Position numbers and translations under genes: made by a program. Below are positions 5,274-56,134 of a stretch of 61,496 nt of DNA, one piece after another. Each line of letters begins with the position of its first letter. Within the stretch, counting starts at the first letter, position 1. Source of the stretch: a virus. The notes beneath the pieces are model-generated. The model searched no databases, was not told the DNA's origin, and saw nothing but the letters and a program-made list of their open reading frames with translations. Location: UHGV virus genome UHGV-0350099, one strand, 5' to 3'.

Positions 5274-5286
5274 CAGGAGATCAAGG

Positions 5287-5979: not shown

Positions 5980-5980
5980 T

Positions 5981-6368: not shown

Positions 6369-6400
6369 TGTCGAAGTTCCCCTCAAATGAGGGGGACACA

Positions 6401-6922: not shown

Positions 6923-6929
6923 GAGTAAA

Positions 6930-7199: not shown

Positions 7200-7209
7200 G
7201 TGTACCCCC

Positions 7210-7290
7210 TGATGGCCGGTGATGTAGGAAGGCCATCATTGCTCTCTATTTAAACTGAGTTTTCGACTCAAAGGTTATTTAACTGGGCTA
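7210..7290. promoter_or_regulatory. Inverted repeats upstream of the antitoxin gene (candidate autoregulatory operator)
   Basis: GATGGCC-N13-GGCCATC at 7210-7236 and perfect palindrome TGGGCTATAGCCCA near 7275-7290. Confidence 0.3.
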
Positions 7291-7467
7291 TAGCCCATTG
7301 CGTATGTGTCATCAAATTGTGTACGGCAATTTACCGTACTCGTAATATAGAGATGATTGTCACTTTTTTCAACAGACAAATGAAAACAGTTACTAGCAAT
7401 AGGCAATAACAACCTACTAAATAACCTTTACACCGCAGCCGTAGGCATTTAGGCTATATCACATATA

Positions 7468-7484
7468 AGAAAACAAGTTGTTTC
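7468..7484. promoter_or_regulatory. AAACAAGTTGTTT palindrome upstream of parA
   Basis: AGAAAACAAGTTGTTTC about 35 nt before parA start. Confidence 0.5.
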
Positions 7485-7518
7485 AGACGATAATTATATA
7501 CGCAAAGGGAACTCTCCA

Positions 7519-8187: not shown

Positions 8188-8546
8188 TGTCCATGAAAAT
8201 GGGTGACCTAGCAAAGCGCAAAGAGCCTGATGCACCGGCTAAGAACACAACTCCTTTGCGCCAACCAGTCAGACCACAGGGACGCCCGACTCGTGGCAAA
8301 GAGAAAATTAAAAGCCGCACGATGTCACTGGAAGACGAATACTTCGAACTGCTGGAGATGATGAAGTTCATCCCTCGCTTCGAGAAGTTCACCCGTTCTG
8401 ACGTGATTCGCGCAGCCATTTTCCATCTGGCAGAGAAGTCACCGCAGGAAATCGAGGACATCGTGAAACTTAACGAGGCGATCACTGCTGCCGATGTCAC
8501 GATGCGTACCGATGAAATTAAACGCGAGTTAATGAAGAAAGGTTGA
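8187..8546 (+). CDS. Small partition/centromere-binding protein partner (ParG/RHH-like)
   Basis: 119 aa; start overlaps parA stop (TAATG); basic N-terminus, C-terminal region compatible with ribbon-helix-helix. Confidence 0.45.
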   Translation: MSMKMGDLAKRKEPDAPAKNTTPLRQPVRPQGRPTRGKEKIKSRTMSLEDEYFELLEMMKFIPRFEKFTRSDVIRAAIFHLAEKSPQEIEDIVKLNEAITAADVTMRTDEIKRELMKKG

Positions 8547-8558
8547 TATAAATCTCTA

Positions 8559-8594
8559 AGGCTGGTCTGCATTGGACAGCCTTAGAAATATTTC
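8559..8594. terminator. Hairpin between convergent genes (bidirectional terminator candidate)
   Basis: TAAGGCTG-N12-CAGCCTTA inverted repeat between parB-like (+) and 8607-9680 (-). Confidence 0.35.
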
Positions 8595-8606
8595 GTTCTA
8601 TGAAAG

Positions 8607-9680
8607 CTATTCGTAGTTAAGCTCACCGAACAGACTGAACATCAAGTCACCATCCAAAATTTCAAAGGGCAACTCGACATACTCATCCTTATGTCTCGGA
8701 ATTGCGTTGCCGTCGTTAGGGGCATTCTTGGTATAACCTTTTACATGTTTACCGTTTTCTTTTGTATACGGCAGCACGACAATTCGACCGTGATTTTTTG
8801 AAATGATAGTTCCTTCTTTCCAGAGCGTATTGCCTCTTGAGGTGGTTTCGCTTTCGCTAGCAACTTTAACACTCCAACCTACCTGATTTTTGTCCTCAAA
8901 CCAGAAAACAAAGTTGCCAACAACCAGTACCTTTTGCCCATTCCTGAGAGCTTCATCCAGCATTCTTTTTACGCTGGCGAGTTGCAGTAACCGGTTAGCA
9001 CGCGGCAGAAGCATTGAGCGAATAGTCGCTTTTGTTTTTCCCCAATGTGCAGCGCCTGATAAACCAAAACCTCTGGCTATGCGTTCTTGGTAGCAGATCT
9101 TCGCTGTCTTAGCTTTGTTGTTATATGAACATTCCCAAGTGTTAGGAGCAACGAGTTGAAGTGAAACTTGGAATTTGGGAAGAAAAACAAAATGTAAGTA
9201 AGGCATCTCGCTTAGCACGTCAAAAAGGGGTTGACGCAAAGTTTCGTAATCTGGGTTAATTATTAACTCATTTAATGTCACTCGCGGATCGTTGGCGTGT
9301 GCCTTAATTGCTTCGTTGAGCATTATATGCTCTTCATCCATGAGACGTGATTTGGCTTTGAGTGCTTTGTCAACTTTCAAACGCAATGACTTCTTTTGAA
9401 ACATAGATAGAGGAAGTTTTTCAATGTCAAAGCTCACGTTTTTATTCAGCTCTAATGCCGCTTTTCTTGCTTCAGGATAGTTATCGTAGTCGTCATCAAA
9501 AGCGTGGTTTGGCATACCACGATCAACATATCGCCGATACCAAGCAAGGGTTCCATCATTACGGAGTTTCAGACAGAACATCGACCATTTATTCCGTTCA
9601 TATTTAGGCTGAGGCCAAAAAGCCAGTTCGGGAAGGCCATATCCTGGAAGTCTATTCATGCGCATGGTGACAATATCCAC
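8607..9680 (-). CDS. Hypothetical protein in AT-rich accessory segment
   Basis: 357-aa ORF on minus strand; lower GC than flanking replication genes; no motif recognised. Confidence 0.5.
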   Translation of the reverse strand: MDIVTMRMNRLPGYGLPELAFWPQPKYERNKWSMFCLKLRNDGTLAWYRRYVDRGMPNHAFDDDYDNYPEARKAALELNKNVSFDIEKLPLSMFQKKSLRLKVDKALKAKSRLMDEEHIMLNEAIKAHANDPRVTLNELIINPDYETLRQPLFDVLSEMPYLHFVFLPKFQVSLQLVAPNTWECSYNNKAKTAKICYQERIARGFGLSGAAHWGKTKATIRSMLLPRANRLLQLASVKRMLDEALRNGQKVLVVGNFVFWFEDKNQVGWSVKVASESETTSRGNTLWKEGTIISKNHGRIVVLPYTKENGKHVKGYTKNAPNDGNAIPRHKDEYVELPFEILDGDLMFSLFGELNYE

Positions 9681-9922
9681 GAGGCTAAAACACTGATTCT
9701 AACATGATCTCCCTTGATAAATCTGTCAATGACATAGCATCTGGGGTTGGAGTCAAATTATGTTGTTCTTGGTATCCATTAGGAGCCTGTTTCTGTATAT
9801 AAATAATAAGTAACTTATTAAATATATACGGAAGCAGGTCTTTTAAAAGACACCACCAGACCAACTCCCTTCCGTTTTCACTTCCAAAAACTGACACCAG
9901 TCGCTATCATCCGTTCATTGTG

Positions 9923-9944
9923 ATAAGTAAGTAGCTACCTACCA
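9923..9944. promoter_or_regulatory. Palindromic intergenic motif GATAAGTAAGTAGCTACCTACC
   Basis: Member of dispersed TAAGTA/TACTTA family. Confidence 0.4.
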
Positions 9945-9954
9945 GGTGAGACAC

Positions 9955-10695
9955 ATGAGCCAAATCTTTTTCGATACCATCGACAACGACCAGTACGACT
10001 TCATGACAGAGTGGAATACCGCTGTTATGGACAAGTGGGTCGCTGAAAACATTGGTTTGTCGCGCTGTAAAGATGAGGCTGAACTCTTCGAGACGAAGTG
10101 GTTTGATTACCGCGACATGCATCCTCTGATGGCCACCTGTCTATTTACGGAGGCATACAAACGTCAGTACTCAAATATCATGCTGACGCACGGTCGCGAA
10201 CACTTTGAAACAGCTCCGTTCACCACCGGGTTAAAACGCCTGCCTTATCAGGAGTTGTCGACTGCCAATAAAACGTCGCTATGGAAAGCACGCCAGTTTG
10301 CTGACCGCTATTGCTGCTCATACGACTACTTTATCTCCACCGTTCTTTCCGCAGCTGCACGACGACTGTGGGACAAGCTGCCGCGTCCGCAGCATTTGTG
10401 GCAGCCAGAACTGATTGAGATATTTGAAGAGAAATTAGCCAGACGCGCAACAACCCGTCTGGATGACTCTCTCGTTAGCTTTAAGCATATGGGAGACATG
10501 CAGTTCAACCCGATTCAGGAAAGCTATTTTGGGTGGATTCTGGAGCGTTTACGCACCATCCCCCGCAGCAAGCGCATACGCGCAATTTTCTCCGCTATCT
10601 GGTTAATGGAAATCGTTCCAGAGCGCCTTATTTCCGCCCACTTTCCAGAAGAACTGGAAGAAGCACGGCGGTTTATTGATCCCCTATCTAATTAA
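9955..10695 (+). CDS. Hypothetical protein
   Basis: ORF frame with ATG 9955 after palindromic intergenic motif; no motif recognised. Confidence 0.5.
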   Translation: MSQIFFDTIDNDQYDFMTEWNTAVMDKWVAENIGLSRCKDEAELFETKWFDYRDMHPLMATCLFTEAYKRQYSNIMLTHGREHFETAPFTTGLKRLPYQELSTANKTSLWKARQFADRYCCSYDYFISTVLSAAARRLWDKLPRPQHLWQPELIEIFEEKLARRATTRLDDSLVSFKHMGDMQFNPIQESYFGWILERLRTIPRSKRIRAIFSAIWLMEIVPERLISAHFPEELEEARRFIDPLSN

Positions 10696-10703
10696 CTAAT
10701 ACT

Positions 10704-10723
10704 AGAAAACAATTTGTTTAAAA
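10704..10723. promoter_or_regulatory. AAACAATTTGTTTAA palindrome upstream of helicase gene
   Basis: AGAAAACAATTTGTTTAAAA followed by AAAGGAAAGCACATG. Confidence 0.5.
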
Positions 10724-10738
10724 AACAAAGGAAAGCAC

Positions 10739-12079
10739 ATGACCGAACTTTGCCATACAGGACGCGGGCTGTCCGAAGAGTTTGATGAAGATTTCCAGAA
10801 CAGACTGACGGCATATTTTTGTCGTGATCACGAGTTTCTTACTCGTGCGGGAGATCTGGTTGTGCCTAGCCAATTTGCCAATGCGGCCAATGCCATATTG
10901 GTTAATATGGTTTCGGGCTATTACCGTATGTACAAGAGCGCGCCCTCTTCATCTGCGATTCTGGATATGCTTAAGCGTGCGAAACGCGATAAGACTATCC
11001 GTGAGGAACTATTCGCCGATGTTGTTGCTGCGTTTAAGCGCATCCTTGCAGAAAAATTGTCTGATACCTCGTACATGGTTGACCAGGTATCAACCTTCGC
11101 AAAAAGCGTAGCGTTTGATGATGCTCTGATTAAGGCTGCTGAACTGAAAGAGAAGGGCGACTTTCAGGGGGCGATGGCAATCATGGCCAAGGTTCAGCAG
11201 ATTGGATCGAACGAAGCGACCGGAATCTATGACTACTACACCTCCGCAAGTGAGCGATTGAAAGCGCGTGAATATGAGGCTTCAGAGGAGTATGTGCCAA
11301 ACAGCATTACAACTGGACTCCCTCTGCTCGATAGGTTGCTGTACCAAAAAGGCTGGGCGAAGCGTGAAATGGTGCTCTTCATGGGGTTCGCTAAATCCGG
11401 TAAATCGACCGCAATGGGTGAGTTTTCCATAAACGCAACGCTTGCTGGCTACAATGTTCTGTATCTCTCGCTGGAGGTTCACACCACCATTTTATCCGAC
11501 CGTTTTGATGCAAGATTGTCGGAGACAGAAATGTCCAAGCTGGTGGAACGGCGCGATGAGGTTCATCGTAAGTTGGCAGAGTTGGGAGCCACGAAGGGGA
11601 TTGGTAGTTTGTGGGTTGTTGAGCGTCCGTCAGGAAGTATGTCACCGGCAGATCTGGATCGTATGCTTAACAGCATGAAAGCCAATGGCATGGTGCCTGA
11701 CATGGTTGTTGTCGACTATGCAGATTTGATGCGTGCCAGTTATGACCTTCGTGATGATCGCGCCAACATACGTAGTATCTATACCGACTTACGTGCTCTT
11801 TATGACAAACACAACGTTGCTGGTATCACGGCATCGCAGACAAACCGTGAAGGTGGCGCGTCAGAAGTTGCCACAATGATGCACGCTGCCGACAACATCG
11901 AAAAAGTACGTATTGCTGACCTGGTAATAACGATCAACAAAACCGAAGAAGAAGAAGCGAAAGGAGAGGCTCGTCTCTACTTTGCTGGTTCACGTAACCA
12001 GCAGGGAGGGATCAGCATTCGCGTTAAACAAAACCTCGAACAAATGCGCTTCATTGAGCGAATCTTAGACGTTACCTAA
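10739..12079 (+). CDS. DnaB-family/RecA-fold replicative DNA helicase
   Basis: Walker A GFAKSGKST, Walker B VVVDYADLM; conserved start context AAAGGAAAGCACATG. Confidence 0.65.
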   Translation: MTELCHTGRGLSEEFDEDFQNRLTAYFCRDHEFLTRAGDLVVPSQFANAANAILVNMVSGYYRMYKSAPSSSAILDMLKRAKRDKTIREELFADVVAAFKRILAEKLSDTSYMVDQVSTFAKSVAFDDALIKAAELKEKGDFQGAMAIMAKVQQIGSNEATGIYDYYTSASERLKAREYEASEEYVPNSITTGLPLLDRLLYQKGWAKREMVLFMGFAKSGKSTAMGEFSINATLAGYNVLYLSLEVHTTILSDRFDARLSETEMSKLVERRDEVHRKLAELGATKGIGSLWVVERPSGSMSPADLDRMLNSMKANGMVPDMVVVDYADLMRASYDLRDDRANIRSIYTDLRALYDKHNVAGITASQTNREGGASEVATMMHAADNIEKVRIADLVITINKTEEEEAKGEARLYFAGSRNQQGGISIRVKQNLEQMRFIERILDVT

Positions 12080-12161
12080 AAAATAAGCGTGGAGAACACC
12101 TCCACGCTTGATTCATTGGTGAAACAACTTTTCTTTTGCCAAACCACAAAAGAAAAACACA

Positions 12162-13342
12162 TGAGCCTTTATGTTATATCAACATTTAGGTTGGTCACAA
12201 TATTGCCTGTTAAAAGTGGAATTATCGTGAGCGAGCTGAAAGAGCTAATTACCGAATTAGATTTTGAACAATGGTTGGACACTGAAGGTATCGTTTATCG
12301 ACGTGGAGGCGTGAGTGCTCGCGGTCGTGAAGTGAATATCAAGGAGTGTCCGGTATGCGGCAGCTCCAACTGGAAGGTATATTTCAATCTGACCAGTGGC
12401 GTCGGTAAATGCTTCGCTGGTGATCATCCCGAAGAGATTCAGTTCAATAAGCTGGTCTTCCTCAAGCACTACAGCGGCAAATCACGACGACAGTTCGAGG
12501 AATATGTGCAGAACGCCCTTCTTTCCCAGGGGTGGGCACCAAAGAAAGAAGAGATAGTGCTTGCAAGCACAGTCGAGTTAGAGGGACCACTTGCACTCCC
12601 TCGTCATTACGAACTTCCTATAGATGGCCGTCTTCCAGACTATCTGGTTGAACGAAACATATCGCCTGAAATGGCAAAGTATTTTGACCTACGATACTGC
12701 GTCGAAGGCAAGCACGCTTATGTAGATCCGTATACAGATCAGGTTAAAGGACAGATATTCGATATGCGAATACTGATACCGGTTTACGATCTGGATGGGG
12801 TAATGAAGACATTTCAGGGGCGAGACATTACCGGTACAGCTGAACGTCGCTACCTCTTTCCTATGCAGCTTCCAGCTTCAGGTAAGTTTCTCTACAACGG
12901 CCATAATGCGGTCGGCAAACAGACTGTAGTTGTCTGTGAGGGGGCGTTCGATGTTATGGGAGTTAAACGAGCTATTTTTGATGAAGAAACATTACGTGAT
13001 TACGTGGAACCGATAGGAACGTTCGGGATGCATCTATCTGGTAACACCACTCAGGATGCAGAAGATCAGTTGGGCGCGTTCCTGACGCTCAAGGCGCGTG
13101 GATTACGTAATGTGATCATGATGTGGGATAGTGAAAAGCAAGCTATACGCAACACTATGGCCGCAGCCAGGCGACTGACCAGTATTGGTCTTAATGTCAA
13201 AGTAGCATGTTTGGGCGAGGAAGGACTCGACCCAGGCGATGCAACGCCAGAACAAATTATCAAAGCCTATTATCGGGCAAAACCGTATACCAAACAGTTG
13301 GAGTTGCAAAGCAAGGTTTTGGGCATTAAGGCGCTATCGTAA
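12162..13342 (+). CDS. DNA primase (zinc finger + Toprim)
   Basis: CPVCGSSNW...KCFAGDH zinc-binding motif; Toprim-like VVCEGAFDVMG and MMWDSEK; start chosen at ATG 12162 after AAAAACAC. Confidence 0.7.
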
Positions 13343-13354
13343 CAAGTGCCGCTA

Positions 13355-13377
13355 AAATAAGTAGATGATTACTTATC
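13355..13377. promoter_or_regulatory. Palindromic intergenic motif AAATAAGTAGATGATTACTTATC
   Basis: Member of dispersed TAAGTA/TACTTA family. Confidence 0.45.
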
Positions 13378-13417
13378 TTTCTGTAAGAATACTTTCATCT
13401 GTTAGCTAGGAGTTGGT

Positions 13418-14194
13418 ATGAAAGACGAAATTCAGAAATTAGCCTGCGACATCATTGATAAAACTGGTTTAGAAATCAGCGAGAGCAATCGACTAGACAT
13501 CATTGAAAAAGCGGTAAAAACAGCAATGGATCATATCGCCACTCGTTTGGTCGAGATCCCGCTACCAGGGCTACCTTATCTGAAAGTTGAGTTACACGTA
13601 TGGGGTGAACCTTCTTGTTCACGGCGTTCTGCATTAGTTGTTTTTATTAGCAAAGAAAACCCGCTCAGTCTTAAAGTGCAGGTTGGTGCATGGATGGATG
13701 GAAAAGTGATCTACACAAATACCGTTTTTTGTCTTTCAAACGACGAAACTATTGAAGCGGCCATTCAAGAAGCAGTTCTAGCAATGCGCAGCAGCGGTTT
13801 GATGAAGAATAACTACGAAGAGTACTTGCGTTCGATAAGTGGTGAAAAGACATTATCTCTGAAAGCAGATTTCGTTACCCCGAAAAATCTGTTGGAAGTC
13901 TTGCTTAATAAAGGGGCTAATGATGCCGTAAATGTAATCAGAGAGAGTGAGTATGCGTCTCTTTGCGACATGTGCAAAAGCCAGTTGGATCTGGTGCATA
14001 TCGTTATTGATGCTGGGAAGGCATGTGATGGCGTAATGGCGGAATTTGCTTGGAAGGTGGTCAGGATTGCTAACGAATTACCGATGATAGAGCAAGAGGC
14101 CAAATCATACGCCACCAATCATGTCACAGAGCTTCTTGTCCCCTATCGCTTAGAAAGCAATCAGCGCAAGATGGTTAGCTGGGGAAGTTGGTAA
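13418..14194 (+). CDS. Hypothetical protein
   Basis: 258-aa ORF, plus strand, preceded by palindromic motif at 13355-13377. Confidence 0.5.
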   Translation: MKDEIQKLACDIIDKTGLEISESNRLDIIEKAVKTAMDHIATRLVEIPLPGLPYLKVELHVWGEPSCSRRSALVVFISKENPLSLKVQVGAWMDGKVIYTNTVFCLSNDETIEAAIQEAVLAMRSSGLMKNNYEEYLRSISGEKTLSLKADFVTPKNLLEVLLNKGANDAVNVIRESEYASLCDMCKSQLDLVHIVIDAGKACDGVMAEFAWKVVRIANELPMIEQEAKSYATNHVTELLVPYRLESNQRKMVSWGSW

Positions 14195-17477: not shown

Positions 17478-17552
17478 GATGGTGTAGCTCAGCGGTAGAG
17501 CAGTTGGCTGTTAACCAACTGGTCGGTGGTTCGAATCCACCCACCATCGCCA
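17478..17552 (+). tRNA. tRNA-Asn (anticodon GUU)
   Basis: Hand-folded cloverleaf: acceptor GATGGTG/CACCATC, D-stem GCTC/GAGC, anticodon loop CTGTTAA, T-loop GGTTCGAATCC, 3' CCA. Confidence 0.8.
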
Positions 17553-17557
17553 ATTTA

Positions 17558-17644
17558 GGGGAGTTAGTCCGTAGGGGCAGCGGGGTAGACTGTAAATCTA
17601 CTGTCATTGCGACTCGGGTGGTTCGACTCCATCACTCCCCACCA
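17558..17644 (+). tRNA. tRNA-Tyr (anticodon GUA), long variable arm
   Basis: Acceptor GGGGAGT/ACTCCCC, anticodon loop CTGTAAA, T-loop GGTTCGACTCC, CCA end; architecture like bacterial tRNA-Tyr. Confidence 0.7.
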
Positions 17645-17648
17645 AATT

Positions 17649-17724
17649 GCCGGTTTAGCTCAGTTGGTAGAGCGCCTGCCTTGTAAGCAGGATGTCAGCG
17701 GTTCGATCCCGTTAACCGGCACCA
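17649..17724 (+). tRNA. tRNA-Thr (anticodon UGU)
   Basis: Acceptor GCCGGTT/AACCGGC, D-stem GCTC/GAGC, anticodon arm CCTGC-CTTGTAA-GCAGG, T-loop GGTTCGATCC, CCA. Confidence 0.75.
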
Positions 17725-17732
17725 ACACAACA

Positions 17733-17944
17733 GGTAAGAGCATTGGGCGAATCGGCGATACTGACCCACAAGCCCGTAAATCGATAGAGTCAGACCAGTG
17801 CTCTTACCGTTGTGAGGAAGTGCAGCTCTTTGAAGCAACCAGAAGATAAGCATCTGGCTTCACAACACAACGATAAGATCATTACGGTTAATCGTCGTTC
17901 ATGTGCACAATGACTGGTCGAAAGGTAGTGATCTTACCGTTGTG
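17733..17944 (+). ncRNA. Three further long hairpins of the same family between tRNAs
   Basis: GGTAAGAGCATTGG/CCAGTGCTCTTACC (17733-17807); GTTGTGAGG/CTTCACAAC (17809-17857); CACAACGATAAGATC/GATCTTACCGTTGTG (17856-17944). Confidence 0.35.
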
Positions 17945-18044
17945 ATGAATGCACAGGCTGATGTGCCGCAACTACAGTAGTGCGCGCTTTGCGGGGCTTG
18001 CTACAACCCTGTGTCGGAGTTCAGCACCGACCATCACAATAGCT

Positions 18045-18131
18045 GGAGAGTAGGGAGCATGGTGCTCAAGCGGTCTTGAAATCCGTCCCATTGTGCAAAC
18101 GATGATGGTTCGATTCCATTACTCTCCGCCA
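18045..18131 (+). tRNA. tRNA-Ser(UGA)-like, long variable arm, possibly degenerate
   Basis: Acceptor GGAGAGT/ACTCTCC + CCA, anticodon loop CTTGAAA, T-loop GGTTCGATTCC; anticodon stem has a T-T mismatch and D-arm is atypical. Confidence 0.45.
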
Positions 18132-33143: not shown

Positions 33144-35483
33144 ATGGCAAAAGGAAAATCCGCACTGGCACTTGCTCTGAAAAAGAAAATCGGTAGCAAC
33201 GACGAAATTCAGAAAGTAACTCATTGGATTGATACAGGCTTTCCACCGTTAAACAAAGCTATTTCTGGTCGTTACGATGGCGGCTTCCCATGTGGTCGTA
33301 TCGTCGAAGTATTCGGTCCACCAAGCGCGGGGAAATGTGTTACCGCAGACACCATGCTGCTGACGGAGCGTGGAATGGTAACAGTGAAAGAGTTGTTTGA
33401 GATTGAAGGGTACAAAGCGACATGCACTACTCGCGATGTAGAGCATAACGTTGGACTCATCAATGAAAATGGCGTGATAGAGAAGACCTCACACCTGACA
33501 TGGAACAACCGTCGCAAATTCAAGCGTATTAAGCTGGCATCAGGCGGTTATATCGAGGCTACGTTCCGTCACCCAATCCGTGTGGTTGACGACTTAGGTA
33601 ATGTCGTCTGGCGACATGCTGAAAAAATCAGTGTAGGCGACACGATTCCTTCAATGGTTGGCACACATCAATTCGGCGATCAGCACCTGGATGCCAATAT
33701 CGCAAAACTGATGGGCTATTTAATTGCTGACGGATACGTGGCCTCTGAAAATTCAGTGAATTTTTCTAACACAGATCCTTTCATCAAGGATGAGTACTAC
33801 CGCCTCATTTCGCTGGTATCAGACAAGATGCCAGTTGCGAGAAAACATAACGGCTCGGAAGACCATGTGCTGTTTAGCAAAGAGGTGCGTTCGCTGCTTT
33901 TTAAAGAATATGGTCTGGAGTATGAGAAAGCTGCTGGCAAGCAGGTTCCGTTGAGTGTGCGTCGCGCCAATAGCGAGGCTCAAATTGCATTCCTTCGCGG
34001 CTACTTTGAGCTGGAATGCCACGTCAATGATGGTCGCTGCATTGAGGTTGTGAGCGCGAGTGGGCTGCTGCTACAGCAAATTCGCCTCATGCTCCTGAAT
34101 CTGGGGATTACGTCAACTATCTCTGAAAAACACGTCGCGGGTTATGAAAATACATATTACCGGCTGTCATTCAGTGGCTCTAATTACGACCTTTTTCTGT
34201 CAACGATTGGTTTCGAATCTCCGGCACGTTTATCAGTGGCAACCAAACGGGACATTGGTTTTGACCGCACTTACTCAGGCTATGTTCCGCACATCAGCGG
34301 CTTAGTGAAATCACTCTACGAGTCGCTCACCAAGACCACCCGTGAAGACTACGCTCTGGTAGACCACGTTATTGGCCGCGGCGATCGTGTCGGAATAGAC
34401 AAACTGCGAGAAATCTATGTCTCCTTCATTGGCAGAAAGAATCGTTTTAACGAGCATCTGTTTGCACAACTGGCAGCGGTAATTGGCTCTAACTTGTTCT
34501 ACGACGAAGTCGTGGCTATTGAGGAAGGTGAAGCACCAACGTTCGACGTAGCGATGCCGGAAACACACTCTTTCTGGTCTAACGGGATTATCAGCCACAA
34601 CACATTCCTTGCAACAGCAGCGATGATCTCCGCTCAAAAACAAGATGGTCTGGCGGTATTCCTCGATCATGAAAACAGTTTTGACGTTGGCCTGGCTGTA
34701 GCCAATGGCCTGAACGCAGATGAGGATGACGGTCAGTGGGTATACAAGCAGCCAGATACCTTCGAAGACTCTGTAGAGTTGATCGGCACAATACTTAAAT
34801 TGGTTCGTGATGAAGAGCTTATCCCCGAATCAGCACCTATCTGTATCGTGGCTGACTCTCTTGCGTCTATGGTTCCGAACTCCAAAGCCGAGAAGTTCGA
34901 AAAGATGGCTGAAGGCACAGCCAAAGACAAAGATCAGCTAAACATGAACGACAATACGGCACTGGCTCGTGCGACGAGTGCGAACTTCCCTACTCTGGCT
35001 TTGTGGGCACGCAAATACAACGCCTGCATCATCTTCTTGAATCAGGTTCGCACAAAAATCGGTGTAATGTTTGGCGACCCTACTACGTCGCCAGGTGGAG
35101 ATTCACCGAAGTTTTACGCTTCTGTGCGTATCCGTCTTGGTGCATCGGTGATGAAGGATGGTAAAGAGAAGATCGGCCAGGACGTAGGCGCAGAATGCAT
35201 CAAAAACAAAGTTGCACCACCGTATGGCAAATGCACCTGGAAATTCTACTTCGATCCTACTCGTGGCCTCGACGTTATCGAATCGCTCGTCGAGTACATG
35301 CTGGAAGAAGGATACCTGCCAAAGAACGCCAGCGGGCGAGTTGAAATTGGTGACAAGAAATACACCAAATCGCAGATCGTCGAGATGTATCGGGAGAAGC
35401 CACTGGCTGAAATCATTGCGGCTTTGCAGGCAATCGACGACCGAAGAGCAAAAGACAACCCCACCGAGTCAGTAGAAGAGTAA
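33144..35483 (+). CDS. recA: RecA-like recombinase interrupted by an intein
   Basis: Exteins: GRIVEVFGPPSAGK|...|TFLATAAM, AVFLDHENSFD, CIVADSLASMVP, IFLNQVRTKIGVMFGDPTTSPGGDSPKFYASVRIRLG match RecA core motifs. Confidence 0.85.
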   Translation: MAKGKSALALALKKKIGSNDEIQKVTHWIDTGFPPLNKAISGRYDGGFPCGRIVEVFGPPSAGKCVTADTMLLTERGMVTVKELFEIEGYKATCTTRDVEHNVGLINENGVIEKTSHLTWNNRRKFKRIKLASGGYIEATFRHPIRVVDDLGNVVWRHAEKISVGDTIPSMVGTHQFGDQHLDANIAKLMGYLIADGYVASENSVNFSNTDPFIKDEYYRLISLVSDKMPVARKHNGSEDHVLFSKEVRSLLFKEYGLEYEKAAGKQVPLSVRRANSEAQIAFLRGYFELECHVNDGRCIEVVSASGLLLQQIRLMLLNLGITSTISEKHVAGYENTYYRLSFSGSNYDLFLSTIGFESPARLSVATKRDIGFDRTYSGYVPHISGLVKSLYESLTKTTREDYALVDHVIGRGDRVGIDKLREIYVSFIGRKNRFNEHLFAQLAAVIGSNLFYDEVVAIEEGEAPTFDVAMPETHSFWSNGIISHNTFLATAAMISAQKQDGLAVFLDHENSFDVGLAVANGLNADEDDGQWVYKQPDTFEDSVELIGTILKLVRDEELIPESAPICIVADSLASMVPNSKAEKFEKMAEGTAKDKDQLNMNDNTALARATSANFPTLALWARKYNACIIFLNQVRTKIGVMFGDPTTSPGGDSPKFYASVRIRLGASVMKDGKEKIGQDVGAECIKNKVAPPYGKCTWKFYFDPTRGLDVIESLVEYMLEEGYLPKNASGRVEIGDKKYTKSQIVEMYREKPLAEIIAALQAIDDRRAKDNPTESVEE
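33336..34601 (+). mobile_element. Intein (422 aa) with LAGLIDADG homing endonuclease, inserted in the RecA P-loop
   Basis: Begins with Cys right after GPPSAGK, ends HN followed by Thr; LAGLIDADG-like LMGYLIADGYV and FLRGYFELECHV. Confidence 0.8.
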
Positions 35484-37675: not shown

Positions 37676-38007
37676 AGGCCATCCCATTCGCGCTGTTGTT
37701 CCTTTCTTCGATCGTTGTGGCCGACACCACTGTTTATCAGTGTGAAATGTCTGTAGCCGACGTTAAGAATGGCGCTCTTACCGACGTCATAAAAGCACCA
37801 TATGGAGCGATGGTCGTAGACAGCGGCGACCAGTTCTATGTTGTGCGTGACGATCGAGTGTTGTCATCCCCATATCTCACAAATCGTAATGGCAAATTAA
37901 CCGGCGTCGGAGAAGACCACTTCGTATACAACAAATACAAGGGCTTCTATGGCGTTCACGCTTCTCAGCAAAGCTACCTTTTCGATGACTGCAAGGAGGT
38001 TGGATAA
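37672..38007 (+). CDS. Secreted protein (signal peptide)
   Basis: N-terminal MKAIPFALLFLSSIVVA signal-like sequence; 111 aa. Confidence 0.45.
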   Translation: MKAIPFALLFLSSIVVADTTVYQCEMSVADVKNGALTDVIKAPYGAMVVDSGDQFYVVRDDRVLSSPYLTNRNGKLTGVGEDHFVYNKYKGFYGVHASQQSYLFDDCKEVG

Positions 38008-38219
38008 TGGCATTAACACTGGCAGGTCTGGAAATCGAGAAAACAAGCGGCTACTGGCGTGCTAAGGGTTTCAAGCAGCCTGGCATTCTTGAGCGTCTGG
38101 AACGTGAAGATGGGTATATCGTCCACCAGCGGCGTGAATGGCGTATGTACGATCCAGAAACAGGAAAACTGACTACAAAAGCCGGAACACTTTGGGGTCT
38201 GTTGAAGAAAATACACTAA
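38007..38219 (+). CDS. Hypothetical small protein
   Basis: 70-aa ORF, ATGG-coupled to previous gene. Confidence 0.4.
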   Translation: MALTLAGLEIEKTSGYWRAKGFKQPGILERLEREDGYIVHQRREWRMYDPETGKLTTKAGTLWGLLKKIH

Positions 38220-38224
38220 TAGCA

Positions 38225-38708
38225 CCAACCACTGCGGTGAGTAGTCTGCTCACCGCATTCGTATCCAGCTCATTATCCACTGTAGTCAGTAACAAAACCT
38301 TCCTACATATCTGCTAACCACTGTAGCGAGTAGACAGCCTTTCATTCGCATCAAACAACCACTATGGTGAGTATTGGAGTGAGATGTCCAGCGGGTATCC
38401 ACTATGGTGAGTAAGCCTTTGCTGTTTTCAGTGGATATCCACTCGCCACAGTGGATACGCTCAAAGATGAGGGCGACAACAACCACTATAGACAGTAAAT
38501 TTTCCAAGATACCCAGTGACCACTAACCTCGCAGCCCTTGTTTCATCAGTGTTAGTGATCACTAACATTTAATTCAGTATTTGCATTCTACTGCCTACAG
38601 TGGTTATCAACAGATAACGATACTCACTATAGTGGATAGCGAATTACAGATATAAGTAAGGCTCACTACAGTGGATAGTGAGCCTTACTACTAACTACAG
38701 TGGTTGGG
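38225..38708. repeat. Iteron-like repeat array downstream of repA (incA-like copy-control candidate)
   Basis: About 11 copies of CCACTRTRG(N)GAGTA / CTACAGTGGWTA at roughly 40-bp spacing, both orientations; core CACTATAGTG is palindromic. Confidence 0.6.
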
Positions 38709-39764
38709 CTATTTGCGAGTCTTTGCCTTGCGCAACTCTTCGAGAAGCGCCAGTTCTTCTTTACTCAACATGACCATTTTGCCTTCTTTTTCGTCAGGCA
38801 CAACGTCGATAATGTCATCTTGATTCTCATCTGGGAGGCTATATTCCGTCTCATCATTATCGATTTTTGTTGATATTTGTGCCTGGCGTAACTTTGGCCG
38901 CCTATAGTGGATGACGAAGTAGACCGAGTTTCCGCGCTTAACTTCCGTGTAATCGAGATATCCTATCTCTCGCAGCTGTTCCATAGCCTTTCTTACCGTC
39001 GCATTCTGAGTAATAGTGCGACTTGTCAGATTAAGTCTGGCGCGTAAACGGGCTAGTGATATTGGTGCCGGATCAGGCGGCAAACTTTCAATAAAAGTAT
39101 AAAGCGCCTGAGCGGATTCTTTTCTTGAGAGTTCGTTTATAGCCCGGAGTTGCAGAAGAACCTTTTTGTCGAACTGGTAGAGTTCGAAAATCTTGGGATC
39201 TGCTTTCAGTTCGACCGTATCGTGCTTGACACTATATTTTGCCGTTTGCACAAGATGCGTTACGTAAAACTCATCAGAGCCTTTGCTACGGAACGAGATG
39301 GTATTTGTGGCAATACGGCTTAGCGAACTGTCCAGGCGTTTGCGTAACTTCGCTGATGACCTGGCGGTCGGAATGCCACACAGCCTTACAAACTCAACGA
39401 ACGGCAACGTGACAGTATCGCCAACGACCTTGTGTTTGGCAAACGCGTGGATTATTCCCACCCACGTTTTAAAGTCGTTATCCATATCAAGCCGAAGGCC
39501 AGAGATCCTTATGTCTTCGTACCCTTCGGCTTTTGCCAGAGACAGCTGTTTGAGTTCAGCAGAGGCATCCATAGAGACCATTTGCCCCTTTCTTCCTCTG
39601 GATGTCGATTTCAGCGTCGGAACGAAGAGGCCCAGACGCATCAAAGCAACAGGCTGAACAGTGTTATTAGTGTTAGGAACCAACGTAACAACTTCGCCTG
39701 TCTTTTTATCTGTTTCTGAAAATGCTTCAACGATCGCTATGTTTTTATTGCCGTTTTCGCTCAT
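38709..39764 (-). CDS. repA: Iteron-type plasmid replication initiator RepA (P1 RepA / RepFIB-like)
   Basis: 351 aa flanked by iteron arrays; [47 protein letters not shown] segments recalled as matching P1-type RepA (no search run). Confidence 0.8.
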
Positions 39765-39804
39765 TCCAAATGTCTCTTGTTATTCGACGGCTTTGGTGGC
39801 CTTT

Positions 39805-39930
39805 GCTGATTACAGTGGATAGTAGCACTCATCACAGCGGTTATCCTACCGTCTATAGTGGTTTTTCTCCTCTCTATAGTGGTTGCTTTGCTCCCTATAG
39901 TGGATTATTCGCTCTCTATAGTGGATATCG
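39805..39930. repeat. Origin iterons (6 direct repeats, about 21-bp spacing)
   Basis: YTCTATAGTGGWT cores at 39811, 39833, 39853, 39875, 39896, 39917. Confidence 0.7.
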
Positions 39931-39964
39931 ATCATGTCTGAAGGCAGATGGCACAACGGTTTGA

Positions 39965-40050
39965 GGTGGGCGGGGATCTTATTGGGTCTTTATGGGTCTC
40001 TTTGGTTCTCTTTGTGATCTGAATTACTGGATCGGGCCTGTGGATAAAAA
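39965..40050. promoter_or_regulatory. Degenerate GATC-heptamer region plus DnaA-box-like TGTGGATAA
   Basis: GGGATCTTATT/GGGTCTTTAT/GGGTCTCTTT/GTGATCT repeats; TGTGGATAA at 40039-40047. Confidence 0.45.
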
Positions 40051-40204
40051 TCAGAGGATTTCAAGAACAGGTAACTCTACTCTTCTGTGGATATTTAAGG
40101 ACATAAGAATCATGACTAAGAGTAGAGTTTAAAATATATCTATGTATATCAGTATGTTAATGAAGAATTAAGTCATTAAGTTATCCATAAAAGACAATGT
40201 GCTC

Positions 40205-40310
40205 TACTCTCTACAGTGGATATATACAGCTCTCCAGAGTGGTTGTTTTACTCTTCATAGCGGTTATTCAGCTCTCTACAGAGGTTTCTTTGCTCTCCAT
40301 AGTGGATGGC
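40205..40310. repeat. Second iteron set (5 repeats), part of duplicated origin module
   Basis: CTCTACAGTGG, CTCCAGAGTGG, CTTCATAGCGG, CTCTACAGAGG, CTCCATAGTGG at 21-22-bp spacing. Confidence 0.6.
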
Positions 40311-40344
40311 AACACCCTTTCAGACCAGTAACCGCAACGGCTAG

Positions 40345-40420
40345 AGGCGATCGGGGATCTCTTTGGATCTTCTATTTGATCTTACTTGGGATCTCTTATT
40401 TGGATCTATCCAGTGGATAA
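40345..40420. promoter_or_regulatory. Cluster of six GATC sites at 11-13-bp spacing plus DnaA-box-like CAGTGGATAA
   Basis: CGATCGGGGATCTCTTTGGATCTTCTATTTGATCTTACTTGGGATCTCTTATTTGGATCTATCCAGTGGATAA. Confidence 0.55.
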
Positions 40421-40507
40421 CTGGGATAAGTAAAACAGGCAAATGCAGATTAAGGTATGCCTAATGAGTTATCGTAGCATCGGCCAATAACTACTGAAAA
40501 AACGATT

Positions 40508-41152
40508 ATGGATCTAAAACGCACGCGCTGGGTTCGTCGTCTTGAGGACGGCTCCTACACTATCGAATCAAATTCCAACCTGAATAAGCAGAAGTTACTT
40601 TGTGATATCTGCGGTATAGCGGCGAAGTGCCCGATCTACGAAACCAGAATTAAACTTGATAAGGCTGGTGTGAACTTTCATTTGAATAGTTGTATCAGGT
40701 ACGTTCCATTGCTCGCATTTCGTAAACCGATCATCGGATTGGATGCGCCCTACTTCAACACACTCCGTTCAGGAGTAACGTGGCGAGATCGTTTATCACC
40801 AGACAAACTGATTTGCCTTGTATCCGCAGATACAGGAAAAATCATTCGTTTTGGGAAAGTAGACAAGGTTTACTCAGGCCCAGTTGACGAGATGTTGCGG
40901 AAACACAGCCGGTTTAATCACCTCTGCATGGGTGGTGAGAAAATCGAGAAGGTTGAAGAAGTGATCCGCAAATCCTACGGACACTTCCTGACCAAAGATA
41001 GCCTGCTCACCGCAATCTACATCAGACATGTAAAACGTGAGTTCGACCTCGAATACCACAGCGAAGAAGAGCTTAACCTTGTTGACCCACGTCCAAAAGC
41101 TGGCGTCATAAGCATAAACGCAGCGCGTAAAAAGCCCACTGACGCGCTGTAA
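40508..41152 (+). CDS. Hypothetical protein
   Basis: 214-aa ORF next to origin region; no motif recognised. Confidence 0.5.
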   Translation: MDLKRTRWVRRLEDGSYTIESNSNLNKQKLLCDICGIAAKCPIYETRIKLDKAGVNFHLNSCIRYVPLLAFRKPIIGLDAPYFNTLRSGVTWRDRLSPDKLICLVSADTGKIIRFGKVDKVYSGPVDEMLRKHSRFNHLCMGGEKIEKVEEVIRKSYGHFLTKDSLLTAIYIRHVKREFDLEYHSEEELNLVDPRPKAGVISINAARKKPTDAL

Positions 41153-55540: not shown

Positions 55541-56134
55541 ATGATTGCAGCCGAAAAAATCAAACAGCGAAAGCGCGACAACTCTCTTCGTGACCTCTGG
55601 AGAACACCTGACTGGCTGTTTTCTGCCATTCAACGTTATCTTGGAGTGACATTTGATGTTGACGTTGCCTGCAACAAGGACAATGCAAAGCTGCCTAATT
55701 TCATAGGCGTTGAGCGTGATGCTTTGAAATCTGAATGGGGACAGCCAGGTACAATTGCCTTCCTCAATCCACCCTACTCCAAAATCTCCCCCTGGATTGA
55801 TGCAGCTATACGTGAGCAGGCTCGCGGAGTTACAACAGTGATGCTAATTCCTCAATCCCTAGATACAAAGTGGTATGAGCGTGCAACAGAGTGTGCGAAT
55901 GAGACGATTATTCTGTCTGGTGGCCGCGTAGCGTTTGTCGAGCCTGACGTCAATCTGGGTCAGGTAGAAGTAAACATCAACCCCGGTGGCAGTATGCTCG
56001 TTGTTTTTCGAGGATTCTGTCAGGACGCTGGGCACTCTATAAGCAAGATCCCTTTGGACGTCATGAAAAGTCTGGGAGGGTATGATCCTGCGAATGTGGT
56101 CAGAAAAAAAAGACCATCAAAGAAGGCTGCTTAG
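55541..56134 (+). CDS. DNA N6-adenine methyltransferase (phage Dam-like)
   Basis: Motif IV AFLNPPYSKI (NPPY); 197 aa typical of small phage N6A methyltransferases. Confidence 0.6.
   Translation: MIAAEKIKQRKRDNSLRDLWRTPDWLFSAIQRYLGVTFDVDVACNKDNAKLPNFIGVERDALKSEWGQPGTIAFLNPPYSKISPWIDAAIREQARGVTTVMLIPQSLDTKWYERATECANETIILSGGRVAFVEPDVNLGQVEVNINPGGSMLVVFRGFCQDAGHSISKIPLDVMKSLGGYDPANVVRKKRPSKKAA

What the first reader, a model, noticed from the sequence alone, without database searches (positions are those of the whole stretch)
38225..40430. Iteron-type plasmid replicon (RepA flanked by iterons, GATC heptamers, DnaA-like boxes) inside a phage DNA-metabolism module
A minus-strand RepA-like gene (38709-39764) has about 11 iterons upstream (two sets at 21-22-bp spacing) with GATC-heptamer clusters and TGTGGATAA-like boxes, and a second iteron cluster downstream at about 40-bp spacing. 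This is the layout of a P1-type oriR/repA/incA replicon. Together with ParA and a TA pair it argues the element is maintained as a plasmid prophage, although most genes look like a lytic phage replication module.
Basis: partly seen in the sequence, partly recalled or inferred. Interest (0 to 1): 0.8.

Follow-up and report, generated by a model that had tools for sequence, protein, structure and literature searches.

The report
Known phage-plasmid iteron replicon, doubled origin
This stretch is the plasmid-style replication unit (RepA initiator plus its repeated binding sites) that lets an already described SSU5-type E. coli phage, Cyrano/pLF82, persist as a low-copy plasmid; it is a known replicon type, and its only unusual feature is that the origin module is present twice in tandem.

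Summary
Twenty-four iteron sites (consensus TACTCTCTAYAGTGGWTAK) lie at 38225-40309: 12 downstream of repA, one weak site inside it, and 6 + 5 upstream at 21-23 bp spacing. The rest of the 61.5 kb has one weak match. The window's densest GATC cluster and DnaA boxes lie where P1 oriR has them.

The 351-aa protein is a Rep_3 initiator, 60% identical to F RepFIB Rep and 49% to P1 RepA. The DnaA-box/GATC/spacer part of the origin aligns with P1 oriR and the F RepFIB origin.

It is not new. The region is 100% identical to phage Cyrano (= pLF82), an SSU5-family phage-plasmid with a measured copy number of 5.5 and observed virions. PlasmidFinder already lists IncFIB(pLF82-PhagePlasmid).

What I did not find described is that the origin module (DnaA box, GATC repeats, spacer, five or six iterons) occurs twice in tandem. 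P1, F and a sister replicon have it once. The doubling recurs in 48 of 78 related species-level loci, including ordinary large plasmids. In all 48 only the repA-distal copy keeps an unbroken GATC run. I infer the distal copy is the origin and the proximal copy mainly the repA operator. This is untested.

The parts
38225..38707 (.). Downstream (incA-like) control cluster of 12 iterons. Minus-orientation sites: 38225, 38273, 38314, 38355, 38395, 38479. Plus-orientation sites: 38420, 38440, 38589, 38621, 38660, 38689. Each site is 19 nt.
   Evidence: Weight-matrix scan and pattern statistics. The cluster is conserved in pMT1-, pHCM2-, Enterobacter-, E. coli- and Citrobacter-type relatives, with 12-15 copies that vary by whole-unit indels. 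The orientation pattern matches P1 incA.
38500..38570 (.). Conserved non-iteron block inside the downstream cluster. It holds the palindrome GTTAGTGATCACTAAC and a second GGTTAGTGGTCAC copy. Its function is unknown; it may be half-iteron sites.
   Evidence: Alignment A3: GGCTGCGAGGTTAGTGGTCACTGGGT is nearly invariant (one substitution each in the E. coli and Citrobacter rows), even in the roughly 68%-identical Citrobacter plasmid.
38709..39764 (-). repA, a 351-aa Rep_3 (WH1+WH2) replication initiator
   Evidence: ORF. Pfam Rep3_N and Rep3_C. 100% identical to Cyrano RepA, 91% to SSU5 RepA, 47.5% to P1/P7 RepA. 60% to F RepFIB Rep and 49% to P1 RepA.
38896..38914 (+). Weak iteron-like site inside repA, covering codons I-H-Y-R-R
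   Evidence: Score 11.9, and conserved in relatives. It uses TAT and the Arg codon AGG (rare in E. coli; own knowledge), where F RepFIB has TAC-CGG for the same residues. Functional significance is unproven.
39804..39928 (+). Proximal iteron array of 6 sites at 21-22 bp spacing, next to the repA start. Inferred to be the repA operator/promoter region.
   Evidence: It is 85-92% identical in four of the five relatives and 65% in Citrobacter. The position corresponds to P1 incC, where PrepA lies inside the iterons.
39929..40047 (-). Rest of the proximal origin-like unit: GC-rich spacer (39929-39974), partly decayed GATC repeats (39975-40033; 3 GATC plus GGTCT/GGTTCT), and a perfect DnaA box TTATCCACA (40039-40047)
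   Evidence: The GATC-like stretch is the best conserved segment of the whole intergenic region, at 92-93% against the pMT1, pHCM2 and Enterobacter relatives (85% E. coli 1919D62, 70% Citrobacter). The same GATC,GATC,GAAC,GACC,GATC pattern recurs in Rahnella and Erwinia, with a similar decay of the middle repeats in Cedecea.
40048..40204 (.). Inter-unit spacer. It holds DnaA-like boxes at 40086-40094 (-) and 40181-40189 (+), an AT-rich core, and a promoter-like TTAACA-16-TATATT on the minus strand (40160-40133) pointing toward repA.
   Evidence: 40123-40182 is the least stable 60-mer of the whole window (nearest-neighbour dG -62.4 against a mean of -82.5). The promoter scan scores 10 of 12. 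The segment 40095-40204 is poorly conserved, at 45-63%.
40205..40309 (+). Distal iteron array of 5 sites at 21-23 bp spacing. Inferred to be the origin iterons.
   Evidence: 81-88% identical in relatives.
40310..40430 (-). Rest of the distal origin unit: GC-rich spacer (40310-40348), six GATC repeats resembling oriC 13-mers (40349-40406), the DnaA box TTATCCACT (40412-40420), and a degenerate second box (40421-40429)
   Evidence: It is the densest GATC cluster in the window. It aligns with the P1 oriR DnaA boxes and Dam sites and with the F RepFIB origin. TTATCCACT is identical to one of the two 9-mers in the annotated P1 DnaA site. The segment is also retained in SSU5-like plasmids that carry a different Rep and different iterons.

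Best explanation
This is the plasmid-maintenance replicon of an SSU5-family phage-plasmid. The element is identical or nearly identical to Cyrano/pLF82, replicon type IncFIB(pLF82-PhagePlasmid). It should work like the RepFIB and P1 oriR-repA-incA replicons.

Proposed mechanism (inferred by homology unless stated):
- RepA monomers bind the directly repeated 19-bp iterons, which are spaced two helical turns apart.
- With host DnaA bound at the flanking DnaA box(es), they open the adjacent Dam-methylatable GATC repeat region and recruit the replisome.
- RepA bound at the repA-proximal iterons represses its own promoter.
- The 12 iterons downstream of repA titrate RepA and pair with ('handcuff') the origin iterons, which holds copy number low. 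The measured value for Cyrano is 5.5 per chromosome.
- GATC hemimethylation and SeqA sequestration probably limit re-initiation.

Feature specific to this lineage: the origin module is tandemly duplicated. My best guess, at about 50% confidence, is a division of labour. The distal copy (40205-40430), which has an intact run of six GATC, would be the firing origin. The proximal copy (39804-40047), which has a decayed GATC run, would serve mainly as the repA operator and an extra pairing or titration target.

What is shown here: sequence anatomy, homology, conservation, and co-variation of iterons with Rep. What is inferred: binding, DNA opening, autorepression, handcuffing, and which copy fires.
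For: - Initiator homology.
- Iteron number, phasing and exclusivity to this locus.
- GATC cluster and DnaA boxes.
- Base-level alignment of the DnaA/GATC/spacer block with annotated P1 oriR and with the F RepFIB origin.
- Orientation pattern like P1 incA.
- Co-variation of iterons with Rep. P1, F-FIB, the Klebsiella-type replicon, the Pantoea single-unit type (five 21-spaced GTTCACTGTAATCAGTA repeats visible in the maps, not scored by the pLF82 matrix) and the pLF82 type each have their own repeat sequence at the same position in a conserved origin backbone.
- Element identity and plasmid state: and PMC9928086.
- PlasmidFinder type name in use: PMC12838234.
- SSU5 group typed IncFIB: PMC7969092.
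- Handcuffing and control role of the downstream iterons in FIB replicons: PMC11983097.
- For the distal-origin sub-claim. In 48 of 78 related loci the unbroken GATC run (4-7 sites) always belongs to the distal unit and never to the proximal one. In Phytobacter, Franconibacter and Tolumonas the proximal unit has decayed to bare iterons while the distal unit stays complete. Replicon-swapped SSU5-like plasmids keep exactly the distal GATC/DnaA block.
Against: - No experiment was done here on binding, DNA opening or autonomous replication of this fragment.
- No convincing sigma-70 promoter for repA was found inside the proximal iterons. The best match is TCGATA-16-AATAAT, 9 of 12.
- Against the distal-origin sub-claim in this element: the distal DnaA box has one mismatch, while the proximal box is perfect.
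- The proximal GATC-like segment is the most conserved piece (93%). It shows no neutral decay, so it must still do something.
- In P1 and F the origin is the unit directly next to rep.
- The F-FIB precedent shows that an intact-looking FIB replicon can be poorly active because of weak Rep translation (PMC11983097).
Confidence: 0.88

Rival explanations
1. The replicon family is the same, but the roles of the two units are reversed. The repA-proximal unit (39804-40047) is the firing origin, as in P1 and F. The distal unit (40205-40430) is an additional negative-control or RepA/DnaA/SeqA sink that pairs with the origin, comparable to incA or to the extra upstream iterons of RK2 oriV.
For: The proximal unit sits where the single origin sits in P1 and F. 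It has the only perfect DnaA box in the locus. Its right end is the closest match to the F RepFIB DnaA-box segment (CTGGATCGGGCCT-TGGATA). It is the best conserved part.
Against: Its central GATC repeats are lost in every one of 48 double-unit relatives. In some lineages the proximal unit has lost the DnaA box and GATC repeats altogether while the distal unit stays intact. The sister single-unit replicons keep a full GATC run.
Confidence: 0.3
2. Both units are functional origins used under different conditions. For example, the Dam-rich distal origin would be subject to SeqA sequestration in the plasmid state. The Dam-poor proximal origin would escape sequestration, for use during induction or in hosts with different methylation.
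For: Both units keep DnaA box, repeat region, spacer and phased iterons under purifying selection. The element encodes its own Dam-family methyltransferase (PF05869, 2.5e-38).
Against: There is no direct evidence. Some lineages have lost the proximal DnaA and GATC parts. The element carries a full phage-type replication set (DnaB-like helicase and Pol III alpha confirmed by Pfam, primase annotated in Cyrano) that more plausibly serves lytic replication.
Confidence: 0.15
3. The replicon is a captured, now inactive relic, or the repeats bind some other protein such as a partition centromere. In this view the episome is maintained by the phage replication genes.
For: The locus is embedded among phage recombination and replication genes. 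ParA is about 30 kb away. F carries a crippled FIB replicon (PMC11983097).
Against: The ORF is intact and conserved (91% to SSU5). All three iteron clusters are conserved across genera. Iterons co-vary with Rep, not with the partition genes. The low, controlled copy number of 5.5 is typical of iteron control. Related replicons are the only recognisable replicon on ordinary Pantoea plasmids.
Confidence: 0.03

Closest known systems
Replicon of Escherichia phage Cyrano / pLF82 and its SSU5, pHCM2 and pMT1 relatives (PlasmidFinder IncFIB(pLF82-PhagePlasmid), IncFIB(pHCM2))
   Same: The finding region (queried as 38100-40550) is 100% identical to Cyrano OV696614.1, and RepA is 100% identical. It is 83% identical to SSU5 and pHCM2, with the same three iteron clusters and the same tandem double unit.
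   Different: Nothing differs in the replicon itself. The window differs from the Cyrano record in the tail-fibre and partition part, so it comes from a close pLF82-like relative or variant.
RepFIB replicon of F / P307 (IncFIB)
   Same: Rep is 60% identical over almost the full length, including the C-terminal tail. There are five origin iterons at 21-23 bp spacing, five GATC at 11-13 bp spacing, tandem DnaA boxes, and control iterons downstream of rep, mostly inverted. The iteron cores share CTACAG. The handcuffing model, with downstream iterons as the controlling set, is described in PMC11983097.
   Different: F has one origin unit and this element has two in tandem. The iteron sequence differs. 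RepA here has 18 extra N-terminal residues. The replicon sits inside a phage genome.
Bacteriophage P1 plasmid replicon oriR (incC)-repA-incA (IncY)
   Same: The order is the same: DnaA boxes, Dam/GATC repeats, GC spacer, 5 iterons at 21 bp, repA, then a downstream iteron cluster with 30-41 bp spacing and mixed orientation. RepA is 49% identical. The origin backbone can be aligned. Both maintain a prophage as a low-copy plasmid.
   Different: P1 iterons (GATGTGTGCTGGAGGGAAA) are unrelated in sequence. P1 has a single origin unit. In P1 parAB lies directly downstream of incA, while here ParA is about 30 kb away. P1 RepA (286 aa) lacks the N- and C-terminal extensions.
Klebsiella-type SSU5-like replicon (typed IncFIB in Klebsiella, L007) and the E. 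coli variant typed rep_cluster_488 (L008)
   Same: It sits at the same genomic slot between the cra-like gene and the ASCH-like gene. Rep is about 51% identical. The distal GATC/DnaA block is conserved at about 82%.
   Different: It has different iterons (ACCGCTGACAGCATA) and only one origin unit. The annotated Rep is over-extended through the iterons.
Multi-cluster iteron origins (RK2 oriV with 5+3+1 iterons; R6K alpha, beta and gamma origins). This is an analogy from my own knowledge only.
   Same: More than one iteron cluster lies upstream of or around the initiator gene, and the extra clusters modulate copy number or act at a distance.
   Different: Here the second cluster is a complete paralogous origin module with its own DnaA box and GATC repeats, not just extra iterons. 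There is no sequence relationship.

Membership tests
P1/RepFIB-type iteron replicon (Rep_3 initiator) | Rep_3 family initiator with WH1 and WH2 domains, homologous to P1 RepA and RepFIB Rep | tested here: met
   Pfam Rep3_N 1.3e-10 and Rep3_C 1.3e-4. 60% identity to F RepFIB Rep, E 5e-143. 49% identity to P1 RepA, E 5e-93.
P1/RepFIB-type iteron replicon (Rep_3 initiator) | Array of about 5 directly repeated iterons, phased at about 21 bp, upstream of rep | tested here: met
   6 sites at 39804-39928 and 5 sites at 40205-40309, spaced 21-23 bp. 16 perfect core matches, all in the locus.
P1/RepFIB-type iteron replicon (Rep_3 initiator) | DnaA box(es) and a run of GATC-containing repeats, separated from the iterons by a GC-rich spacer | tested here: met
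   Six GATC at 40349-40406 and boxes at 40412-40420 and 40039-40047. The block aligns with annotated P1 oriR and with the F RepFIB origin.
P1/RepFIB-type iteron replicon (Rep_3 initiator) | Second iteron cluster downstream of rep (incA-type control locus) | tested here: met
   12 sites at 38225-38707 with mixed orientation, as in P1 incA.
P1/RepFIB-type iteron replicon (Rep_3 initiator) | Initiator binds the iterons specifically | not testable with these tools
   Only indirect support is available. The iteron sequence changes together with Rep across five related replicon types, while the origin backbone stays conserved.
P1/RepFIB-type iteron replicon (Rep_3 initiator) | The fragment supports autonomous, copy-controlled replication | not testable with these tools
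   Indirect support. Cyrano, which has an identical replicon, is maintained at 5.5 copies per chromosome (PMC9928086). 461 PLSDB plasmid records match this region, 158 of them over at least 80% of its length.
SSU5-supergroup phage-plasmid | SSU5-like phage backbone (tail, lysis, DNA-metabolism genes) together with plasmid replication and partition genes on one extrachromosomal element | tested here: met
   100% identity of the replicon region to Cyrano and 83% to SSU5. Annotation shows tail fibre, holin, ParA, helicase, primase, Pol III alpha, RecA and SbcCD. Pfam confirms ParA, DnaB_C, Pol III alpha and RecA. The plasmid state and virions come from PMC9928086.
IncFIB(pLF82-PhagePlasmid) PlasmidFinder replicon type | repA matching the pLF82 reference | tested here: met
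   RepA is 100% identical to that of Cyrano = pLF82. The type name is in use (PMC12838234). PlasmidFinder itself was not run.

The most novel reading that the evidence does not exclude
The tandem duplication of the whole origin module (DnaA box, GATC repeats, spacer, phased iterons) may be an ancient, selectively maintained design of one RepFIB sub-lineage. The two jobs done by a single iteron array in P1 and F would have been split between two paralogous copies. The distal copy would be the Dam-regulated firing origin. The proximal copy would be the repA operator and pairing partner, with a conserved, Dam-poor relic of the unwinding repeats. I found no description of this in the accessible literature. 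It would be a natural experiment in how iteron replicons separate initiation from autoregulation.
Probability: 0.4. Interest if true: 0.4.

Novelty: already known. Interest (0 to 1): 0.2.

Why it matters
The finding correctly identifies how a clinically widespread group of E. coli, Salmonella and Yersinia phage-plasmids stays in the cell. That group includes pLF82/Cyrano, SSU5, pHCM2 and pMT1, some of which carry resistance genes. However, this is established knowledge, and the replicon is already a PlasmidFinder type.

The practical value is a base-resolution map of the iterons, DnaA boxes and GATC repeats. Such a map can guide curing or incompatibility cassettes. For FIB replicons the downstream iterons are the effective curing determinant (PMC11983097).

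The conserved doubled origin is a modest, testable curiosity for plasmid replication specialists.

A side benefit is an annotation correction. In the two related loci examined (Klebsiella pneumoniae and E. coli plasmids), Rep genes are annotated with a false N-terminus translated from the iterons.

Tried and rejected
- PDB sequence search with RepA gave no hit at E <= 1. No structure prediction was run, because 49-60% identity to P1 and F initiators already settles the family.
- NCBIfam gave no hit for RepA, the ASCH-like protein or the Cra-like protein.
- An Rfam scan of 37900-40600 at E <= 1 found nothing, so there is no sign of a known antisense-RNA control system.
- The oriC 13-mer consensus GATCTNTTNTTTT is not enriched window-wide: 25 matches against 31 expected. 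Two of the matches lie in the distal GATC run. I therefore do not claim true 13-mers.
- GC skew shows no switch at the locus. Skew follows transcription direction and says nothing about which unit fires.
- The promoter scan found no strong repA promoter in the proximal iterons. The best-scoring site lies in the poorly conserved inter-unit spacer.
- The AT-rich minimum-stability segment at 40123-40182 looked like an unwinding-element candidate. Its AT-richness is not conserved in relatives, so I do not rely on it.
- The centromere, other-protein and assembly-artefact explanations were rejected (see rival explanations and observation check).
- Several papers could not be opened. These were a 2026 preprint on phage-plasmid heteroresistance that mentions RepA 41 times, the RepFIB paper PMC204830, and two further PMC ids (PMC108724 and PMC107557), which I believed from memory to be pMT1 sequence papers. 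I therefore cannot exclude that the double iteron set upstream of repA was described there.
Full report
**1. What is there**

The minus-strand ORF at 38709-39764 encodes a 351-aa protein. It matches Pfam Rep3_N (1.3e-10) and Rep3_C (1.3e-4), the two winged-helix domains of iteron-plasmid initiators.

The repeat finder showed a repeated motif on both sides of the gene. I built a weight matrix from only ten of the upstream copies and scanned the whole 61,496-base window.
- The scan returned 24 sites scoring at least 11.9 bits, all between 38225 and 40309.
- It returned a single weak site (9.0 bits, at 25316) everywhere else.
- The consensus is TACTCTCTAYAGTGGWTAK.
- An independent pattern search (CTNNNYAYAGTGGWT) gave 16 perfect matches, all in the locus. 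With up to 2 mismatches it gave 53 matches against 22.5 +/- 4.4 expected, and 0 of 100 shuffles reached 53.

The sites fall into groups:
- Twelve lie downstream of repA at 38225-38707. Six are in each orientation, with spacing mostly 39-41 bp and some 20-32 bp.
- One weak site lies inside repA at 38896.
- Six lie next to the repA start at 39804-39928, spaced 22,21,21,21,21 bp.
- Five lie further upstream at 40205-40309, spaced 23,21,21,21 bp.

The six GATC at 40349-40406 form the densest GATC cluster in the window. A perfect DnaA box, TTATCCACA, is at 40039-40047. One-mismatch boxes are at 40086, 40181 and 40412.

**2. Where the sequence comes from**

The region 38100-40550 is 100% identical to Escherichia phage Cyrano (OV696614.1), where the ORF is annotated RepA. 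It is 83% identical to Salmonella phage SSU5.

In PLSDB, 461 plasmids match. Sixty-seven are at least 99% identical, and pHCM2 of S. Typhi is 83% identical. MOB-suite types the fetched pLF82-type relatives (pG8786, pHCM2, Enterobacter, E. coli 1919D62, Citrobacter) as IncFIB.

Cyrano is the former plasmid pLF82 of the adherent-invasive E. coli strain LF82. It is described as an SSU5-like phage-plasmid. Its copy number was measured as 5.5 per chromosome with repA primers, and siphovirus particles were attributed to it (PMC9928086). 'IncFIB(pLF82-PhagePlasmid)' is a PlasmidFinder replicon name in routine use (PMC12838234). The SSU5 supergroup is reported as predominantly IncFIB (PMC7969092).

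The window is not collinear with the Cyrano record in the tail-fibre and partition part. The best PLSDB match there is 99.4% over 91% of the query. The window therefore comes from a close pLF82-like relative.

- ParA at 7519-8187 and a GNAT toxin at 6401-6922.
- HicAB, integrase, repressor, helicase, primase and Pol III alpha.
- UvsY, gp32-like SSB, RecA, SbcCD and ribonucleotide reductase flanking the replicon.

**3. Homology to the model replicons**

RepA is 60% identical to the RepFIB initiator of plasmid F over nearly its full length (E 5e-143). It is 49% identical to P1 RepA (E 5e-93; 47.5% by tblastn).

The curated P1 record gives the reference layout:
- tandem DnaA boxes, then five Dam sites, then a spacer;
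- five incC iterons at 21 bp with PrepA inside them;
- repA;
- nine incA iterons at 30-41 bp spacing.

I mapped the F RepFIB origin in the same way. It has five iterons at 23,21,21,21 bp, five GATC at 11-13 bp, and tandem DnaA boxes, present once.

A multiple alignment shows that the DnaA-box/GATC-repeat/'GATCCCCGATCG...GCCG' spacer block is recognisably homologous in P1 oriR, F RepFIB, a Klebsiella-type SSU5-like plasmid, and both upstream units of the window. The iterons that follow the block are different in each replicon. The repeats thus change together with the Rep protein inside a conserved origin backbone. This co-variation is the best available indirect evidence that they are RepA binding sites.

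The downstream cluster copies the P1 incA orientation logic. Sites nearest repA point the same way as the origin iterons, and distal ones are inverted. In relatives the downstream cluster varies between 12 and 15 copies by whole-unit insertions and deletions. From my own knowledge, such copy-number variation is usual for control iterons.

**4. The one non-textbook feature: a tandemly doubled origin module**

Read in the repA direction, the intergenic region runs as follows:
- Distal unit: DnaA box(es) at 40429-40412; six GATC repeats at 40406-40349; GC spacer; five iterons at 40309-40205.
- A 157-bp spacer.
- Proximal unit: DnaA box at 40047-40039; GATC-like repeats at 40033-39975; GC spacer; six iterons at 39928-39804.
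- The repA start at 39764.

The two units are paralogous, with a period of about 375-380 bp (repeat families D1, D9, D10 and D15; alignment). The proximal unit has lost the GATC in its three central repeats, which now read GGTCT, GGTCT and GGTTCT.

P1 and F have a single unit. SSU5-like plasmids that carry a different Rep at the same genomic slot also have a single unit. These are Klebsiella L007 and E. coli L008, with Rep about 51% identical and iterons ACCGCTGACAGCATA. They nevertheless keep the distal GATC/DnaA block.

The doubled structure is not a recent accident.
- It is present in at least 335 PLSDB plasmids that cover at least 80% of the 706-bp intergenic query.
- It is present in pMT1-type, pHCM2, Enterobacter, E. 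coli and Citrobacter relatives down to 68% DNA identity.
- It is present in a 206-kb Pantoea agglomerans plasmid whose 5.2-kb neighbourhood shows no phage genes.

A species-level survey of 80 RepA-relative loci at 62-91% identity gave the following:
- 48 loci have the unbroken GATC run (4-7 sites) more than 380 bp upstream of rep. By matrix score, 43 of them have one iteron array beside that run and a further array nearer rep, and all 48 have iteron sites in between.
- 28 loci have the single-unit P1/F geometry.
- 2 have no GATC cluster, and 2 have too little upstream sequence.

In none of the 48 does the proximal unit keep four or more uninterrupted GATC repeats. In Rahnella and Erwinia the proximal unit shows the same GATC,GATC,GAAC,GACC,GATC pattern as the window, and Cedecea shows a similar decay of the middle repeats. 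In Phytobacter, Franconibacter and Tolumonas the proximal unit has been reduced to irregular iterons, with no DnaA box or GATC, while the distal unit is complete.

Within the SSU5/pHCM2/pMT1 group both units are conserved. Iterons are 85-92% identical (65-81% in Citrobacter), and the proximal GATC-like stretch is 92-93% identical against pMT1, pHCM2 and Enterobacter. The spacer between the units is only 45-63% identical.

**5. How it most likely works**

By homology with P1 and RepFIB, I propose the following (mechanistic background: P1 record; FIB handcuffing model, PMC11983097; Dam/SeqA control of iteron replicons, PMC6090056).
- RepA monomers occupy the phased origin iterons.
- With DnaA they open the adjacent GATC repeat region.
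- RepA at the repA-proximal iterons autoregulates transcription.
- The downstream cluster titrates RepA and handcuffs the origin, which sets the low copy number.

For the doubled module I favour a division of labour at about even odds. The distal copy would be the Dam-regulated firing origin. The proximal copy would be the operator plus an extra pairing target. Three observations support this:
- The distal copy is the one that always stays complete.
- The distal copy is the part retained when the Rep/iteron cassette is swapped.
- The proximal copy can lose its DnaA and GATC parts.

Three observations count against it:
- In this element the perfect DnaA box is the proximal one.
- The proximal repeat relic is under strong constraint.
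- The proximal position is where the origin lies in P1 and F.

None of the functional steps was tested here.

**6. Comparison, novelty and verdict**

The finding is a correct reading of a known object. It is a RepFIB/P1-type iteron replicon, identical to that of the published phage-plasmid Cyrano/pLF82 and typed by standard tools. I rate it 'already known' with low interest.

The tandem origin duplication, with its conserved asymmetry in Dam sites, is the only aspect I could not find described. Searches of the held literature for iterons in pHCM2, pMT1 or SSU5 returned nothing relevant. It is a variant of a known design, not a new kind of system.

**7. Dead ends**

- The PDB sequence search found nothing.
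- NCBIfam found nothing.
- Rfam found nothing.
- oriC-type 13-mers are not enriched.
- GC skew is uninformative.
- No convincing repA promoter was found.
- The strikingly unstable AT-rich 60-mer at 40123-40182 is lineage-specific and not conserved.

Noticed in passing
L007:1752-2969 and L008:1773-2987 (Klebsiella pneumoniae and E. coli SSU5-like plasmids): The annotated 405-aa 'RepB family' initiator is over-extended at its N-terminus through the five origin iterons. The false N-terminus reads MLSAV...MLSAV...MLPTV...MLSAV, which is a translation of the repeat TATGCTGTCAGCGGT. The real start is probably the internal MSTKKKK.
   Followed up: partly
window 38007-40507 compared with L007 and L008: Among SSU5-like phage-plasmids the Rep-plus-iteron cassette is exchanged at a fixed slot between the cra-like gene and the ASCH-like gene. 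The GATC-repeat/DnaA-box end of the origin is retained (about 82% identity) across the exchange.
   Followed up: partly
window 38896-38914: An iteron-like site lies inside repA, over codons Ile-His-Tyr-Arg-Arg. It uses TAT and AGG (a rare Arg codon in E. coli, from my own knowledge), and AGA in Citrobacter. F RepFIB encodes the same residues with TAC-CGG and has no iteron match. This may be a 25th RepA site or may be chance.
   Followed up: partly
window 38500-38570: A conserved non-iteron block sits in the middle of the downstream iteron cluster. It contains a perfect 16-bp palindrome, GTTAGTGATCACTAAC, centred on a GATC, and a second copy, GGTTAGTGGTCAC. It may be half-iteron (RepA dimer) sites or another protein's site.
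   Followed up: no
window 40095-40204: The spacer between the two origin units contains the least thermodynamically stable 60-mer of the whole 61.5-kb window (40123-40182). It also holds the best promoter-like match in the locus, TTAACA-16-TATATT on the minus strand, pointing toward repA. The segment is poorly conserved in relatives.
   Followed up: partly
window 33144-35483 (+): The RecA homologue (779 aa) is interrupted by an intein with a LAGLIDADG homing-endonuclease domain. Pfam hits are RecA 3.3e-36, LAGLIDADG_3 2.8e-17 and Intein_splicing 2e-11.
   Followed up: partly
window 55541-56134 (+): The element encodes its own Dam-family N6-adenine methyltransferase (PF05869, 2.5e-38). This could bear on methylation of the GATC repeats at the origin. 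Its specificity was not examined.
   Followed up: no
window 17478-18131 (+): ARAGORN finds four tRNA genes here (Asn-GTT, Tyr-GTA, Thr-TGT, Ser-TGA). The corresponding stretch of the Cyrano record annotates only three (Asn, Thr, Ser).
   Followed up: no
window 1-14000 compared with OV696614.1: The window is not collinear with the Cyrano record in the tail-fibre, toxin-antitoxin and partition region (coordinate offsets of +136 to +551). No PLSDB plasmid matches it completely there; the best is 99.4% over 91%. This is probably tail-fibre and host-range module variation between pLF82-like elements.
   Followed up: partly
window 38709-38890 (RepA residues about 294-351): RepA has an acidic C-terminal tail followed by a short helical tail. 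P1 RepA lacks it, but F RepFIB Rep and the relatives share it. It gives a weak Pfam hit to T4_y05I_C (E 0.005, below threshold). Its function is unknown.
   Followed up: no
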